From positions 3,786-67,785 of the forward strand of contig CAZOQA010000004.1 in NCBI GenBank assembly GCA_964581775.1: a stretch of DNA of 64,000 bases, read 5' to 3'. The stretch is from an uncultured Thermoplasmatales archaeon (GTDB taxonomy: Archaea > Thermoplasmatota > SW-10-69-26). Made by a program: the position numbers and the translations under genes. Positions within the stretch are counted from its first letter, which is position 1. Each line of letters starts with the position of its first letter. The notes beneath the pieces were generated by a model. The model saw only the letters and a program-made list of their open reading frames with translations, had not been told where the DNA came from and did no database searches. Shown here piece by piece: positions 36,643 to 64,000 of the stretch.

Positions 36643-38313
36643 ATGAGGTCGCTTCCCACAGCCATCCTGCTCGCCGTTGGCAGCTTAGCTGCCATGGCGC
36701 TCGTCTTCGCGGGAGCGGCCAGCGCCCAAAGCTACGGGCCCGACCCCTGGGAGATCGGGATGGAATGGTCGTGGGGAAGCGACGACACCTCCCAGCGGTC
36801 CTACATCGACGACCACACGAAGCTCGCTACGTCCACCGGGAAGTACGACGTCTGGCGAACGCAGACCTCCTACGAAGGCGAGACCACCTCCGCGCACCGG
36901 GTCACGATGTGGGTGGAGGACAACCACCGGCGCGCCTACGACGAGGTCAACATGCGGCAAGCAGCCGGCGACCCCATCACGTCCATGACCGAGTACTCGC
37001 CCCCCGCGCCCTTCCCCATGTGGGAGGGCATCGGGCCCGGCGCGGACATCCAGCTCGAGGTCACCGAGTACACCTCCTACCGCAGCGGTCTCCAATACCT
37101 GGGAAGCGAGGAGACCACGTGGGACTGGTACGCGGTGGCCAGCCACGACGTGCACGAGGTCGACACGCCCGCCGGCACGTTCGAAGGGTTCAACGTGACC
37201 GTGTACAAGGAGGAGGTCGACGGGGACGACGCGGCCCTCTACCGCTACTTCTACGCGCACGAAGCGCGCCACTGGGTCGCCACGTACGACAGCGACGAAG
37301 AGCTCGACCTCAAGCTCAACCAGCTCCAACTGGACCCCCCGCCCATCGCACGCGGGTTCGCCGCGCCCAACATTGCCCAGCTCGGGGACGAGGTCACCCT
37401 CTACGGGCACGAAAGCCACACGTACGACGGCGAGATCGCCTCGCACGCCTGGAGCATCCCCGCCGGCGTCACCGTGGACAACGCGACGCTCACCGAAGAG
37501 ACCACGATCGAGGCCACGAACGTGACGGTGCGCTTCGGCGACGCCGAGCAAGACCGCTACCGGTTCGTGCTCACCGTCACGGGCACCAACGGGCAAACCG
37601 CCACGGACCCCGTCACGGTGCGCGTGGTCGAACCCGACGAGCGCTACCAGCTCGAGGGACCCGGCTGGTCCACCGTCGGCGAACCCACTCAGCTTCGCCT
37701 GGTCCCCCCCGAGAACCGCACCGTGCAAGAGGCCCGCTGGGCCGTGGACGGCCCCGGAGACGTCGACCCGGACGAGGACCAGGGTCTCGACCCCGAGATC
37801 GTGTTCCCCCAGCCCGGCGGTTACACCGTCTCTGTCACGTACACCGACAACGAGGGGACGACAGGCACCCTCTCCCACGACGTGTTCGTGATCGGGGGAG
37901 ACGGATTCTCGATTCGAGGGGACCCTGACCAGGACACGGTGCAAGCCGGGGACGACGCGGTCGGCCCCGCCATCATCAACCCCGAGAACGGCACGCGCAT
38001 GGGCTCCTCGAACGCGGACATCGTCGTCCACACCACGGGGCTCGAGGACCCCAAGCTCGTGCTCCCCAACGGGCTGCGCGTACCCCTTCAAACGGCCGAA
38101 CCCATCGACATCGCGACCGTCCCGCTTTCCCCGCCCGAATCCACCATCCGACTCGTGGACGGGAACCAGACGCTCGACCAGGTCACGCTCCTGTACGAGG
38201 ACCCCGCCAACCCCGGGACGACCGGATCCCAAGACACGGGCACGAACCAGGCGCCGTTCCCGTGGCTTCCCGCTCTCTTGCTCGCGCCGCTTCTACAGAG
38301 GAGGACCCCATGA
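36643..38313 (+). CDS. secreted anchored surface protein (556 aa) with PKD-like Ig domains
   Basis: The signal is MRSLPTAILLAVGSLAAMALVFAGAASAQS. PKD-like segments are HESHTYDGEIASHAWSI...YRFVLTVTGTNGQTATDPVTVRV and WAVDG...GGYTVSVTYTDNEG. The C-terminus is APFPWLPALLLAPLLQRRTP. Confidence 0.85.
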   Translation: MRSLPTAILLAVGSLAAMALVFAGAASAQSYGPDPWEIGMEWSWGSDDTSQRSYIDDHTKLATSTGKYDVWRTQTSYEGETTSAHRVTMWVEDNHRRAYDEVNMRQAAGDPITSMTEYSPPAPFPMWEGIGPGADIQLEVTEYTSYRSGLQYLGSEETTWDWYAVASHDVHEVDTPAGTFEGFNVTVYKEEVDGDDAALYRYFYAHEARHWVATYDSDEELDLKLNQLQLDPPPIARGFAAPNIAQLGDEVTLYGHESHTYDGEIASHAWSIPAGVTVDNATLTEETTIEATNVTVRFGDAEQDRYRFVLTVTGTNGQTATDPVTVRVVEPDERYQLEGPGWSTVGEPTQLRLVPPENRTVQEARWAVDGPGDVDPDEDQGLDPEIVFPQPGGYTVSVTYTDNEGTTGTLSHDVFVIGGDGFSIRGDPDQDTVQAGDDAVGPAIINPENGTRMGSSNADIVVHTTGLEDPKLVLPNGLRVPLQTAEPIDIATVPLSPPESTIRLVDGNQTLDQVTLLYEDPANPGTTGSQDTGTNQAPFPWLPALLLAPLLQRRTP

Positions 38314-62536: not shown

Positions 62537-64000
62537 ATGGACATCCAGCGCATCTGGAACGCGTTGACGACCGGGGAACGCCTCGTGCTTGCAGCCTCGG
62601 GGCTCGTCGCCGTGCTCCTCGTCGTCGCCGGCGCCGTGCTCGTGGCCGGCACCCCCTTCCAACCCGCGCAAACCGACGTGGAAGGCGGCGAGGTCGTGGA
62701 CAGCGACGGGGACGGGCTAAGCGACGCGGAGGAGCTTTTGCTCTACGGCACCGATCCCCAAGTCGAGGACACCAGCGGCGACGGCTTGCCCGACGGGTGG
62801 GCCGCCGAGAACATGCGCGTGAACCCCGAGACGGGCCTGCCCTCCCCGGACCCCGCGCGCGCCACCGCGGACGAAGACCCCAGCGGGAGCGGCCTGACGA
62901 ACATGGAAGAGTACCGCCTGGGCACGGACCCATGGCGCCAAGACACCAGCGGGGACGGGTTCCACGACGGATGGCTCAACGCCAGCGGCCTGGACCCCAC
63001 CGAACCGCACGACCCCACCTTCTCCTGCAGCGCCGATGGCATGACGCTTCAAGAGAAATGGGACCACGGGCTCGAAGCGTGCGCCGAGGACAGCGACCAG
63101 GACGGCCTCACCGATCGCGAAGAGCTCGACGGCCACGCCACGCTTGGCACCCGCACGCTCACCTTCGAGCCCACCGACCCCGCCAGCTCCTCCACCGCCG
63201 GCAGCGGCCTGCCCGACGGGTTCGCCGTGTACCACGGGCTGGACCCGCACGACGCGAACGTGGGCCGCGTCGACCACAGCGGGGACGGCATGACGGCCGC
63301 GCAGGAAGCCCGATGGAGCCAGGACCGCTTCGACGACGTGCGCACCGCCATCGTGGAAGGCCTCGACTTGACGGACCCCGACACCAGCGACAACGGGATC
63401 CCCGACGCCTGGGCCATCCGGCACGGTCTGGACCCCCTGGACGCGGGCATCGCGGACGAGGACCCCAGCGGAAGCGGCCTCACGAACCTCGAAGAGTACC
63501 AGTGGGGCACCGACCCCAACGAGGCCGACACGAGCGGGAACGGCCTCACGGACGGGGAGGAGGTCCAAGGGTGGACGATCACCGTGGACGGGCAAGAGCG
63601 CCACGTGAGCTCGAACCCCCTGCTCGTGGACTCCAGCGGGGACGGCATGACCGACTACGAAGCCAAACACGGCGAGGTCACCATCGACGGGGAACCCGTC
63701 ACGTTCCCCCCCGTGGACCCCATGCTGCCCGACACGGACGGGGACGGGCTCACCGACTACGACGAGATCACGGTCACGTTCGGAGACAACGACAAACGGT
63801 TGGACCCCACCCTATCGGACACGGCCGGCAGCGGGATGCTCGACGGGGAGGAGCTCGAGTACTGGCAGATGCGCGAAGCCGAAGCCGCGGACGCCTGGCC
63901 CGAGCACCTGGACCCCCCCACGCACGGGGACTGCCAAGACGAGGCCACCGCCGCCATCGAAGCCCAGGACCCCGCCGCGCTCGGGCCCGGCGGCGATTTG
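62537..64000 (+). CDS. N-terminally anchored protein with about 13 thrombospondin type 3-like Ca-binding repeats (partial; continues beyond the window)
   Basis: This ORF is not in the supplied track because no stop occurs before the window end. ATG at 62537 lies 1 nt after the upstream TGA, and a GGAGGA SD lies at 62525-62530. I translated all 488 codons by hand and found no in-frame stop. The product begins MDIQRIWNALTTGERLVLAASGLVAVLLVVAGAVLVAG. Repeats include DSDGDGLSDAEE, DTSGDGLPDGW, DSDQDGLTDREE and DTDGDGLTDYDE. Confidence 0.85.
   Translation, partial: MDIQRIWNALTTGERLVLAASGLVAVLLVVAGAVLVAGTPFQPAQTDVEGGEVVDSDGDGLSDAEELLLYGTDPQVEDTSGDGLPDGWAAENMRVNPETGLPSPDPARATADEDPSGSGLTNMEEYRLGTDPWRQDTSGDGFHDGWLNASGLDPTEPHDPTFSCSADGMTLQEKWDHGLEACAEDSDQDGLTDREELDGHATLGTRTLTFEPTDPASSSTAGSGLPDGFAVYHGLDPHDANVGRVDHSGDGMTAAQEARWSQDRFDDVRTAIVEGLDLTDPDTSDNGIPDAWAIRHGLDPLDAGIADEDPSGSGLTNLEEYQWGTDPNEADTSGNGLTDGEEVQGWTITVDGQERHVSSNPLLVDSSGDGMTDYEAKHGEVTIDGEPVTFPPVDPMLPDTDGDGLTDYDEITVTFGDNDKRLDPTLSDTAGSGMLDGEELEYWQMREAEAADAWPEHLDPPTHGDCQDEATAAIEAQDPAALGPGGDL

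What the first reader, a model, noticed from the sequence alone, without database searches (positions are those of the whole stretch)
36643..64000. Five translationally coupled genes for giant anchored surface proteins fill more than 27 kb
The genes encode proteins of 556, about 2674, about 4138, 1263 and more than 488 aa. They are joined by overlapping or abutting stop and start codons: ATGA at 38310-38313, TTGA (or GTG 46322) at 46331-46334, GTGA at 58744-58747, and TGA-g-ATG at 62533-62539. Three of the four internal starts have a GGAGG-type SD 5-9 nt upstream (38299, 46316, 62525), and 58744 has a weaker GGGGTG. The first gene instead has only an AT-rich TATA-like box (36605-36617). The first four products carry their own Sec-type signal (ASAQS, ASAQD, AIAQE or a signal anchor) and their own C-terminal helix plus RR. 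They are therefore separate polypeptides that are probably made in fixed proportion. The fifth has an N-terminal signal anchor, and its C-terminus lies beyond the window. Visible modules are all binding or scaffold types: PKD, FN3, CARDB/NEW3-like Ig, jelly-roll, GxD and TSP3 Ca-binding repeats. I found no catalytic motif by eye. A co-expressed set of multi-thousand-residue envelope proteins suggests a dedicated cell-surface superstructure, such as an adhesion or capture matrix or an S-layer-associated canopy, rather than isolated adhesins. I know of no characterised system with this composition.
Basis: partly seen in the sequence, partly recalled or inferred. Interest (0 to 1): 0.85.

Follow-up and report, generated by a model that had tools for sequence, protein, structure and literature searches.

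The report
Giant archaeal surface-protein operon with MoxR module
The five giant anchored surface-protein genes are real and conserved. They are the front part of a longer operon that in related archaea ends with a DUF4350/DUF58/MoxR ATPase module, an envelope system predicted in 2015 but never studied experimentally.

Summary
All five ORFs, the four stop/start junctions, the Shine-Dalgarno motifs, the signal peptides and the C-terminal helix+RR tails are at the stated coordinates. The same gene order and overlaps recur in at least six independent assemblies of halophilic Thermoplasmata relatives (36-81% protein identity).

The unit is not five genes. A conserved secreted, anchored gene (g0, 35182-36516) precedes it with its own promoter-like box. 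In relatives, gene 5 is about 2,000-2,100 aa and ends in a transmembrane helix plus a cytoplasmic DUF4129 domain. It is followed, still overlapping, by DUF4350, DUF58 (vWA-like) and a polytopic membrane protein. In a distant Thermoplasmatota relative a MoxR AAA+ ATPase follows as well.

This matches the uncharacterised "arCOG01314" envelope complex predicted by Makarova et al. (2015), here with enormously enlarged Ig-like components.

The gene-4 family has only 11 members among 1.84 billion representative proteins. About 70-90% of genes 2 and 3 match no known family, and no catalytic domain was found.

My best reading is an ATPase-serviced cell-surface coat or adhesion complex of S-layer-less archaea. 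I rate it a new variant of a known (predicted) kind. Function is inferred, not shown.

The parts
35148..35157 (+). TATA-like box (ACCTTTATGG) 31 nt upstream of the g0 start, implying a leaderless g0 transcript
   Evidence: The same GGAACCTTTATGG lies at the same distance in L009. It is one of very few AT-rich spots in a 68% GC window.
35182..36516 (+). g0: 444-aa acidic secreted protein with a signal peptide and a C-terminal hydrophobic helix plus RHRRR. No known family.
   Evidence: The orthologue at L009 841-2211 is 51% identical.
36591..36622 (+). Conserved promoter-like element CGATAGACGGTCAGGATAATGCTTAAGAGGGG. Its TTAAG core lies 26-31 nt upstream of the g1 ATG (leaderless or very short leader).
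   Evidence: It is near-identical in L009 and L008 while the rest of the intergenic region is not alignable.
36643..38313 (+). g1: 556 aa. Signal peptide, N-terminal beta domain, two PKD domains, a C-terminal beta-sandwich, then PFPWL...LLRRR anchor.
   Evidence: Pfam. Eight orthologues. Alignment A4. AF2 model with pLDDT 64.7, PKD region 85-90. Foldseek gives generic Ig-string matches.
38299..38304 (+). SD motif AGGAGG for g2, formed by the two AGG Arg codons of the g1 C-terminal RR
38310..46334 (+). g2: 2674 aa. Signal anchor, about 1,900 aa without any family match, weak Big_3-like hits, fn3 at 2456-2537, C-terminal helix plus RR.
   Evidence: Orthologues of 2664 and 2690 aa in L008 and L009. 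Conservation is even at 40-64% identity along the whole length.
46316..46321 (+). SD motif AGGAGG for g3, again made of RR codons. The junction GGAGG-N8/9-(T/G)TGA is conserved.
46331..58747 (+). g3: 4138 aa from TTG 46331 (or 4141 aa from GTG 46322). Signal peptide, several CARDB domains, PKD, NEW3/DUF7507, long unmatched stretches, C-terminal helix plus KRR.
   Evidence: Orthologues of 3856-4514 aa in L001, L003, L005, L007, L011 and L014. BLASTP against the L011 g3 gives E=7e-21.
58730..58736 (+). SD-like GGGGTGA for g4, conserved as G(G/A)GGTGA in orthologues
58744..62535 (+). g4: 1263 aa. Signal peptide, family-specific all-beta N-terminal region (about 27-585), Ig_VWA7-like, NEW3 and CARDB domains, C-terminal helix plus RR.
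   Evidence: An exhaustive profile search found only 11 family members in 1.84e9 proteins.
62525..62529 (+). SD motif GGAGG for g5 (CGG AGG = RR of g4)
62537..64000 (+). g5, N-terminal 488 aa only: signal anchor and TSP3-type Ca-binding repeats. Full-length orthologues are 2031-2109 aa, with Big_3_5/Big_1/MG4 Ig domains, a second TM helix and a cytoplasmic DUF4129 domain.

Best explanation
The window holds the extracellular half of a long, conserved Thermoplasmatota operon for a membrane-anchored cell-surface complex. I read it as a giant-protein version of the DUF4350 (arCOG01314) / DUF58-vWA / MoxR-ATPase envelope system that Makarova et al. predicted in 2015.

Shown here:
- g0-g4 are Sec-exported, highly acidic, Ig-domain-rich proteins. 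Each is held in the membrane by a single C-terminal helix with a 2-5-residue basic cytoplasmic tail.
- Full-length g5, seen in relatives, spans the membrane twice. It exposes about 1,900 aa of TSP3 Ca-binding repeats and Ig domains, and places a DUF4129 helical domain in the cytoplasm.
- In relatives the next genes, still overlapping by 4 nt, encode a DUF4350 protein (signal peptide, GldG-like ectodomain, C-terminal helix), a DUF58 protein (two N-terminal helices plus a vWA-like domain) and a polytopic membrane protein.
- In the distant relative L014 a MoxR AAA+ ATPase follows.

Inferred:
- The giants form a non-crystalline protein coat or adhesive canopy on cells that lack an S-layer.
- The cytoplasmic MoxR/DUF58 pair, acting through the DUF4129 tail of g5 and the DUF4350 and membrane subunits, assembles, matures or remodels that coat using ATP.
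- Expression starts at a conserved leaderless promoter just upstream of g1. Ribosomes are then handed from gene to gene through stop/start overlaps whose SD motifs are written in the Arg-Arg codons of each upstream anchor.
For: Gene structure and coupling:
- ORFs and junctions confirmed.
- AGG makes up 4.9% of Arg codons overall but 5 of the 6 Arg codons in the terminal RR of g1, g2 and g4, where it creates GGAGG.
- No run of five or more T and no terminator-like hairpin on the + strand inside the block.
- A phylogenetically conserved promoter-like element lies upstream of g1.

Synteny:
- g0-g1-g2-g3 in L009, and g1-g2-g3 in L008.
- g3-g4-g5 in L001, L003, L005, L007, L011 and L014.
- g5-DUF4350-DUF58 in L003, L005 and L014.
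- MoxR (AAA_3, E=4e-63) in L014.
-.
- Orthology holds at 23-32% identity. The association therefore predates the split between the halophilic clade and other Thermoplasmatota.

Topology: hydropathy and charge patterns.

Domain content: only binding or scaffold types were found. The g1 model matches strings of Ig domains in S-layer proteins, adhesins and GhpA.

Literature:
- PMC5898192 section 3.2 and Table 2 describe the same component list: DUF4350, MoxR, Ig+vWA, Ig-like 'S-layer' proteins and small multi-TM proteins.
- Thermoplasmatales lack an S-layer but carry a roughly 20-nm unordered exterior protein layer of unknown composition (PMC12448462).
Against: - The DUF4350, DUF58 and MoxR genes lie beyond the window end. 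They were seen only in relatives, the closest of which has 56% identity in g4.
- MoxR was seen in only one distant locus (L014), behind an 82-nt gap with its own TATA-like box. In the halophilic clade a 1177-aa polytopic protein sits at that point and the sequence beyond it could not be fetched.
- No physical interaction, expression or localisation data exist.
- About 70-90% of g2 and g3 have no family match, so an enzymatic or toxin domain could be hidden there.
- The g4 N-terminal model was poor (pLDDT 49.6).
- The g3 orthologues in L001 and L007 end without the hydrophobic helix plus RR, so the anchor is not universal, or those assemblies carry frameshifts.
- All organisms involved are uncultured MAGs.
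Confidence: 0.55

Rival explanations
1. One reading: a self-sufficient set of five co-expressed giant envelope proteins that build an adhesion or capture matrix or canopy, with no dedicated machinery.
For: The five genes, their coupling and their scaffold-type domains are confirmed. The gene order is conserved.
Against: Every relative whose contig reaches far enough (L003, L005, L014) continues from g5 into DUF4350 and then DUF58 with 4-nt overlaps. g5 itself carries a cytoplasmic DUF4129 domain. g0 upstream is also conserved.
Confidence: 0.1
2. A secretion or surface-export apparatus, as Makarova et al. proposed for arCOG01314 loci. The DUF4350 (GldG-like), DUF58, MoxR and membrane proteins would form the machine, and the giants would be its cargo or conduit.
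For: Component match to PMC5898192 Table 2. DUF4350 gives a weak ABC_transp_aux/GldG-type hit. The cargo-sized proteins are encoded in the same operon.
Against: g0-g4 all have ordinary Sec-type signal peptides and stop-transfer anchors, so they need no special exporter. No channel-forming or secretin-like component was detected. The 2015 proposal is itself untested.
Confidence: 0.15
3. A surface sensing or defence system analogous to the actinobacterial Esr pathway or the bifidobacterial PFNA cluster. Long Ig-repeat ectodomains would detect an external partner (a DPANN epibiont, virus or host surface) and signal inward through the DUF4129, DUF58-vWA and MoxR components.
For: The Esr and PFNA clusters combine a large surface Ig/FN3 protein with MoxR, a vWA/DUF58 protein and a transglutaminase (PMC13622651, PMC8430577). 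g5 links a huge ectodomain to a cytoplasmic domain.
Against: No Ser/Thr kinase, phosphatase, FHA domain, beta-propeller or transglutaminase core was found in any locus examined. There were no PADLOC hits. Four additional giants with only 2-5-residue cytoplasmic tails look structural rather than signalling. Conservation is even along their length rather than showing hypervariable tips.
Confidence: 0.12
4. Independent adhesins or S-layer-like proteins that happen to be clustered, with no joint complex. The tight junctions would be only genome compaction.
For: The six proteins show no detectable paralogy with one another. Large CARDB/PKD proteins are common in archaea.
Against: Order, overlaps and SD placement are preserved down to 23-32% protein identity across Thermoplasmatota. 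The g4 family exists only in this context: all 10 full-length members are 1240-1360 aa, and each of the seven members whose locus was fetched is flanked by g3-like and g5-like genes.
Confidence: 0.05

Closest known systems
arCOG01314 (DUF4350)-centred predicted 'secretion or membrane-remodelling complex' of archaea (Makarova, Galperin, Koonin 2015, Biochimie; PMC5898192 section 3.2, Table 2, Fig. 2)
   Same: The component list is the same: a DUF4350 protein with signal peptide and C-terminal TM; a DUF58/vWA protein; a MoxR/GvpN-type AAA+ ATPase; several secreted or membrane proteins with Ig-like domains; and small multi-TM proteins, all in one predicted operon.
   Different: - The Ig-like components here are 556-4500 aa giants belonging to families with about 10 known members. 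They are not the arCOG02487/02884 'predicted S-layer' proteins.
- A double-anchored protein of about 2,000 aa with TSP3 repeats carries DUF4129.
- MoxR was confirmed in only one distant relative.
- The 2015 system is a computational prediction with no experimental function.
MoxR-DUF58-TgpA operon of Pseudomonas aeruginosa (PA2875-PA2874-PA2873; PMC3507681)
   Same: A DUF58 protein is encoded in one operon with a large membrane protein that has an extracytoplasmic domain. My own knowledge (not stated in the text I read) is that PA2875 is MoxR-type, PA2874 is DUF58, and TgpA-type proteins end in DUF4129 after a TM helix, as g5 orthologues do.
   Different: No transglutaminase core domain was detected in g5 orthologues or neighbours. 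This system is archaeal. Giant Ig-rich ectodomains take the place of a periplasmic TGase.
Esr epibiont-sensing pathway of Actinomycetales (bioRxiv 2026, PMC13622651) and the PFNA cluster of Bifidobacterium (PMC8430577)
   Same: A large secreted Ig/FN3-repeat surface protein is encoded next to MoxR and a vWA/DUF58 protein.
   Different: Those clusters include a Ser/Thr kinase, phosphatase, FHA protein, transglutaminase and (in Esr) a beta-propeller sensor head. None of these was found here. This locus has five or six surface proteins rather than one, plus DUF4350 and DUF4129.
Bat (Bacteroides aerotolerance) operon: MoxR, DUF58, BatA-E (PMC3557215, PMC5700661, PMC11834572; found by search, contents from my own knowledge)
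   Same: A MoxR plus DUF58 pair followed by membrane-anchored vWA and Ig-like (BatD/DUF11-type) envelope proteins. A sub-threshold BatD-like hit falls on a g3 CARDB domain.
   Different: The Bat system is bacterial, uses small proteins with TPR and vWA modules, and has no giants, DUF4350 or DUF4129.
Exterior protein layer of S-layer-less Thermoplasmatales (PMC12448462)
   Same: A dense, non-lattice protein layer of about 20 nm on the membrane of related wall-less archaea. Membrane-anchored Ig-rich giants are the kind of protein expected to form such a layer.
   Different: The composition of that layer is unknown. The species studied (Cuniculiplasma, Oxyplasma) were not shown to carry this operon. 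The link is inference only.

Membership tests
arCOG01314/DUF4350-associated predicted envelope complex (Makarova 2015) | Operon encodes a DUF4350 protein with an N-terminal signal or anchor and a single C-terminal TM | tested here: met
   Orthologous loci L003 (E=6.5e-13), L005 and L014 (E=5e-10). The gene directly overlaps the end of g5 and has the expected topology. In the window itself the gene would lie beyond base 64000, so this is inferred by synteny.
arCOG01314/DUF4350-associated predicted envelope complex (Makarova 2015) | Adjacent vWA-type (DUF58) protein | tested here: met
   DUF58 at E=8e-14 in L003 and E=6e-14 in L014, with a partial copy in L005. The L003 and L014 proteins are 32% identical over 361 aa.
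arCOG01314/DUF4350-associated predicted envelope complex (Makarova 2015) | MoxR/GvpN-type AAA+ ATPase (COG0714) in the operon | tested here: inconclusive
   Present in L014 (AAA_3, E=3.8e-63) after a 170-aa membrane protein and an 82-nt gap.
arCOG01314/DUF4350-associated predicted envelope complex (Makarova 2015) | Several secreted or membrane proteins with extracellular Ig-like domains in the same operon | tested here: met
   g1-g5 carry PKD, fn3, CARDB, NEW3 and Big domains.
Esr / vWA-MoxR sensing systems (PMC13622651; Kaur et al. 2020, PMC7159879) | Ser/Thr kinase, phosphatase and FHA output module | tested here: not met
   None found in the window or within 10 kb downstream of g4 in L003 and L014. 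Regions further downstream were not seen.
Esr / vWA-MoxR sensing systems (PMC13622651; Kaur et al. 2020, PMC7159879) | Surface filament with a terminal beta-propeller sensor domain | tested here: not met
   No WD40 or beta-propeller family hit in g0-g5 or their orthologues. Large unmatched regions leave some room.
MoxR-DUF58-TgpA (transglutaminase) operons | Transglutaminase-core domain on the DUF4129-bearing membrane protein | tested here: not met
   g5 orthologues have DUF4129 (E=1.9e-5 in L003, 6e-10 in L014) but no Transglut_core hit. The first 559 aa of the L003 downstream protein have none either.
Archaeosortase/exosortase-type C-terminal sorting signals (PGF-CTERM, PEF-CTERM, IPTL-CTERM etc.) | Recognised CTERM sorting-domain model on the tails, and a cognate sortase gene nearby | tested here: not met
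   NCBIfam returned no CTERM model for g1-g4. No archaeosortase was found among the 25 window genes scanned upstream. The tails share only a loose P-rich/hydrophobic/RR pattern.
Known anti-phage defence systems (PADLOC) | Any component matches a PADLOC model | tested here: not met
   No hits for g0, g1, g4, g5N, DUF4350, DUF58 or MoxR.
Crystalline archaeal S-layer proteins | Lattice-forming surface glycoprotein | not testable with these tools
   No sequence family match. Foldseek similarity of g1 to SbsB, EA1 and Sap is generic tandem-Ig similarity with TM about 0.14.

The most novel reading that the evidence does not exclude
The cytoplasmic MoxR AAA+/DUF58-vWA pair would act, through the DUF4129 tail of the double-anchored g5 protein, as an ATP-driven inside-out controller or outside-in sensor of a giant extracellular canopy. 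This would be an archaeal, integrin-like or Esr-like device. With it, wall-less Thermoplasmatota would regulate contact with other cells, for example DPANN epibionts, viruses or particles. The canopy would consist of four novel protein families, up to 4,500 aa each, with as yet unseen folds or activities in their unmatched 70-90%.
Probability: 0.12. Interest if true: 0.85.

Novelty: new variant of a known kind. Interest (0 to 1): 0.55.

Why it matters
MoxR/DUF58/DUF4350/DUF4129 gene neighbourhoods are widespread in archaea and bacteria and are among the larger pieces of conserved 'dark matter'. The archaeal version has had only a cartoon model since 2015.

This locus ties that module to a defined, very large set of surface proteins, more than 10,000 residues of ectodomain per copy of the operon. 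It does so in a lineage that has no S-layer, and whose cultivated relatives show an exterior protein layer of unknown composition. It therefore nominates concrete candidates for that layer. It also offers a clear client for the ATPase/vWA pair.

The proteins themselves are almost entirely unexplored sequence space. The g4 family has 11 members in 1.84 billion representatives.

The junction design, in which the Arg-Arg stop-transfer codons of one anchor double as the Shine-Dalgarno site of the next gene, is a neat example of dual coding.

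Tried and rejected
- Exact-sequence look-ups of window g1, g2, g4 and of the 100%-identical P0001 found no contig. The 96,142-bp source contig could not be fetched, so the end of g5 and what follows in this genome are unknown.
- Two metagenome-contig scans (the L003 downstream protein, and the g4 alignment) found nothing.
- The genome-contig scan with the g5 C-terminal alignment returned only the already known PWVY01000292.
- The third homologous-protein search, on the L003 1177-aa protein, returned nothing, not even the protein itself. It was wasted.
- PDB sequence searches gave only fn3 and PKD hits for g2 and g3, and none for the g4 profile.
- The AF2 model of g4 residues 27-585 was poor (pLDDT 49.6). 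Its Foldseek hits (TM about 0.1) were discarded as meaningless.
- The Foldseek hits of the g1 model are generic tandem-Ig matches and were not used for a functional call.
- An archaeosortase-type sorting signal was considered for the C-terminal tails and rejected.
- A defence-system assignment was considered. There were no PADLOC hits and no kinase, FHA or toxin domains.
- A halophilic 'cellulosome-like' glycan degrader was considered. The only enzyme-named hit (CbhB) is just the fn3 domain, 23 bits against a cut-off of 1950.
- Paralogy among g0-g5 was tested by BLASTP. There was none at E<1e-5.
- The sigma-70 promoter scan is irrelevant for an archaeon and gave 0 hits. The terminator scan and T-run count are only weak evidence: about 1 run of five T is expected by chance in 29 kb.
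- The long minus-strand ORFs opposite g2-g4 (up to 1025 aa) were rejected as high-GC artefacts because of their codon-position GC pattern.

Full report
**1. What is in the sequence**

The window is about 68% GC. Its proteins are strongly acidic, with pI 4.0-4.7 and 15-22% D+E.

Between 36643 and 64000 on the + strand there are five consecutive ORFs with the codon-position GC signature of real genes, GC3 0.86-0.91:
- g1: 36643-38313, 556 aa.
- g2: 38310-46334, 2674 aa.
- g3: 46322 or 46331 to 58747, 4141 or 4138 aa.
- g4: 58744-62535, 1263 aa.
- g5: 62537 to beyond 64000, 488 aa inside the window.

Comparison with two relatives shows a conserved GGAGG-N8/9-(T/G)TGA at the g2/g3 junction. The start that overlaps the stop (TTG 46331) is therefore the likely one.

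The 'weak' GGGGTGA before g4 is conserved as G(G/A)GGTGA in four orthologous loci. It matches the GGAGGTGA anti-16S consensus (the consensus is from general knowledge).

GGAGG occurs once per roughly 415 nt in the block. Its placement 5-9 nt before three of four internal starts is therefore not chance.

The motif is written in the Arg-Arg codons of the upstream protein's C-terminal tail. AGG makes up 4.9% of Arg codons in these genes overall, but 5 of the 6 codons in the terminal RR of g1, g2 and g4.

**2. Proteins**

g1, g3 and g4 have cleavable-looking signal peptides, and g2 and g5 have signal anchors. g1-g4 each end in a hydrophobic segment followed by RR, RRR or KRR.

Pfam confirms the following:
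- PKD in g1.
- fn3 in g2, plus weak Big_3-type hits.
- CARDB at four or more positions in g3, with PKD and NEW3/DUF7507.
- Ig_VWA7-like, NEW3 and CARDB in g4.
- Bacterial TSP3 repeats in g5.

NCBIfam adds only TSP3-repeat similarity to CglD and MtsD.

The first roughly 1,900 aa of g2, most of g3 and the first roughly 830 aa of g4 match no family. PDB sequence searches return only fn3 and PKD.

No catalytic family was found. Given the low coverage, this is absence of evidence only.

Structure prediction gave limited information:
- An AF2 model of g1 (8-sequence alignment, pLDDT 64.7) shows an N-terminal beta domain, two confident PKD domains and a C-terminal beta-sandwich.
- Its Foldseek matches are strings of Ig domains in S-layer proteins, adhesins and the GhpA grappling hook, at low TM. 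That is a generic resemblance.
- The g4 N-terminal model was too poor to use.

The six proteins are not detectable paralogues of each other. Each is conserved evenly along its length, at 40-64% identity to orthologues in 100-aa windows. This fits folded, interacting proteins rather than fast-evolving repeat arrays.

**3. Surroundings in the window**

It is a 444-aa acidic protein with a signal peptide, no family match, and the same kind of C-terminal helix plus RHRRR. It is conserved at the same position in L009, at 51% identity.

g0 has its own CCTTTATGG box 31 nt before its ATG, and L009 has the same box at the same distance.

The g0-g1 spacer contains a 32-nt element (36591-36622, CGATAGACGGTCAGGATAATGCTTAAGAGGGG). 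It is nearly identical in L009 and L008, although the rest of the spacer does not align. I read it as the promoter of a leaderless g1-and-onward transcript, possibly with a regulator site. This is an inference.

Further upstream, on the opposite strand, is a respiratory cluster: cupredoxin, DUF7318, a TAT-signal Rieske-like protein and split cytochrome b. Beyond it lie housekeeping genes, including Hjc and OapC.

No MoxR, sortase or glycosyltransferase cluster lies upstream.

No run of five or more T and no terminator-like hairpin occurs on the + strand within the block. This is weak evidence, because only about one T5 run is expected by chance.

**4. Relatives**

The families are very rare:
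- g4 has 6 relatives among 5.8 billion clustered proteins.
- g1 has 8 relatives.
- An exhaustive HMMER profile search with the g4 N-terminal region found 11 proteins in 1.84 billion representatives. All but one fragment are 1240-1360 aa.

Sources are MAGs and metagenome assemblies:
- One is 'Thermoplasmata archaeon CSSed11_322R1' from hypersaline soda-lake sediment, the KTK 4A group (PMC6146748).
- More distant members are labelled Candidatus Thermoplasmatota or Methanobacteriota archaeon.

Contigs carrying these proteins show the same order and the same 4-nt overlaps or 1-nt gaps:
- [g0]-g1-g2-g3 in L008, L009 and L010.
- g3-g4-g5 in L001, L002, L003, L005, L006, L007, L011-L013 and L014.
-.

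Cluster membership shows that a g1 orthologue (P0018) and a g4 orthologue (P0004) lie on the same 67-kb contig. P0012 and P0005 likewise share a 35.5-kb contig.

**5. What lies beyond the window**

In relatives g5 is 2031-2109 aa. It has an N-terminal anchor, TSP3 repeats, a long cysteine-containing region, Big_3_5/Big_1/MG4/CarboxypepD_reg Ig-like domains and a second TM helix. After the helix comes a positively charged stretch and a DUF4129 domain, so that domain is cytoplasmic.

The genes that follow are:
- DUF4350, overlapping the g5 stop by 4 nt. It is 325-410 aa with a signal or anchor, an ectodomain giving a weak GldG/ABC_transp_aux hit, and a C-terminal TM.
- DUF58, about 406-409 aa, with two N-terminal TM helices.
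- A polytopic membrane protein: 1177 aa with a large ectodomain in L003, and 170 aa in L014.
- In L014, after an 82-nt spacer with a TTATATA box, a MoxR ATPase (AAA_3, E=3.8e-63).
-.

L014 and L011 are only 23-32% identical to the window proteins. The link between the giants and the DUF4129/DUF4350/DUF58 module is therefore old.

**6. Comparison with what is known**

*Closest described system.* Makarova, Galperin and Koonin (2015; PMC5898192) described archaeal operons built around arCOG01314 (DUF4350). The components were a COG0714 MoxR/GvpN ATPase, an Ig+vWA protein, several Ig-like 'predicted S-layer' proteins and small multi-TM proteins. They proposed a novel secretion or membrane-remodelling complex. 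No experiment has followed in the literature I could search. The present operon fits that component list, with four differences:
- Its Ig-like members are giants from different, tiny families.
- DUF4129 sits on a protein of about 2,000 aa.
- There are five or six anchored ectoproteins.
- MoxR is confirmed only in L014.

*Bacterial parallels.*
- The PA2875-PA2874-tgpA operon of P. aeruginosa (PMC3507681).
- The bifidobacterial PFNA cluster (PMC8430577).
- The recently described Esr epibiont-sensing pathway. There a filamentous Ig-repeat surface protein works with MoxR, vWA, a transglutaminase and kinase/FHA signalling (PMC13622651).
- The Bat operons.

The transglutaminase, kinase/FHA and beta-propeller parts of those systems were not found here. 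There is also no PADLOC hit.

*Possible cellular context.* Cultivated Thermoplasmatales lack an S-layer but carry a roughly 20-nm unordered exterior protein layer of unknown composition (PMC12448462). This is a plausible context, but the link is inferred.

**7. Most likely mechanism**

*Shown:*
- A conserved, tightly coupled operon.
- Sec-type export signals.
- Single C-terminal anchors with minimal cytoplasmic tails on g0-g4.
- One double-anchored protein (g5) with a cytoplasmic DUF4129 domain.
- DUF4350, DUF58 and membrane proteins downstream in relatives, plus MoxR in L014.

*Inferred:*
- g0-g5 and DUF4350 form one surface assembly, a coat or adhesive canopy. Ca2+ would be bound by the TSP3 repeats of g5.
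- The cytoplasmic MoxR hexamer, recruited by the vWA-like DUF58 protein and the DUF4129 tail, assembles, matures or remodels the assembly.
- Translational coupling sets the stoichiometry.

I give this about 0.55. The rivals are a true export machine, an Esr-like sensor or defence device, an autonomous five-gene superstructure, and unrelated clustered adhesins. They are listed with the evidence for and against each.

**8. Verdict**

The unit is larger than five genes, and it belongs to a previously predicted but uncharacterised class.
- Novelty: a new variant of a known (predicted) kind.
- Interest is moderate to high for archaeal envelope biology and for the MoxR/vWA field. It is limited because the function is inferred, the organisms are uncultured, and the key downstream genes lie outside the window.

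Noticed in passing
window 35182-36516 (+): g0 is a conserved 444-aa secreted acidic protein with a C-terminal helix plus RHRRR, no family match, and its own conserved TATA-like box (35148-35157).
   Followed up: partly
window 38299-38304, 46316-46321, 62525-62529: The Shine-Dalgarno GGAGG of each downstream gene is encoded by the Arg-Arg (AGG AGG or CGG AGG) stop-transfer codons of the upstream protein's anchor. AGG is otherwise a rare Arg codon here (4.9%). The same arrangement is seen in L008, L009, L001, L005, L007, L011 and L014.
   Followed up: yes
window 36591-36622; L009 about 2300-2335; L008 about 97-128: A 32-nt intergenic element, CGATAGACGGTCAGGATAATGCTTAAGAGGGG, is almost invariant across lineages whose proteins are about 50% identical. 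The part upstream of the TATA-like core (CGATAGACGGTCAGG) could be a BRE or a regulator-binding site.
   Followed up: partly
L001 g3 end (about 9940-10004) and L007 g3 end: In two relatives the g3 orthologue ends without the hydrophobic helix plus basic tail (...GALGEVRLG and ...LPTLGVIRG). Either the anchor has really been lost or there are frameshifts in those assemblies. This is unexplained.
   Followed up: no
L003 22197-23873 (+): The gene after DUF58 in the halophilic clade encodes a 1177-aa protein with about 5-6 N-terminal TM helices, then an ectodomain with many N-x-S/T sequons and a sub-threshold DNRLRE-domain hit (26.6 bits against a cut-off of 34). In L014 a 170-aa polytopic protein sits in the same place, and the two show no detectable similarity.
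   Followed up: partly
L014 23341-23421: MoxR in the distant relative is separated from the operon by 82 nt containing CTTATATAC, so it may have its own promoter.
   Followed up: no
window 18717-20168 (-): A single 483-aa ORF combines ThiS (ubiquitin-like), ThiF/E1 and rhodanese domains, that is, a ubiquitin-like modifier fused to its activating enzyme.
   Followed up: no
window 31412-35107 (-): A respiratory cluster diverges from g0: a cupredoxin/halocyanin-like protein (290 aa), DUF7318, a TAT-signal protein with a Cys/His-rich C-terminus (Rieske-like by eye, no Pfam hit), and cytochrome b split into N- and C-terminal genes. A glutaredoxin-like gene lies beside it.
   Followed up: partly
window 27583-30024 (-): An 813-aa protein with a weak, interrupted M14 zinc-carboxypeptidase match (E=3e-7). 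The rest of the protein is unmatched.
   Followed up: no
window 48809-51562, 55850-58603, 58483-61560 (-): Very long antisense ORFs (917-1025 aa) lie opposite g3 and g4. Their GC2 > GC1 pattern marks them as artefacts of stop-codon-poor high-GC DNA, not genes.
   Followed up: yes
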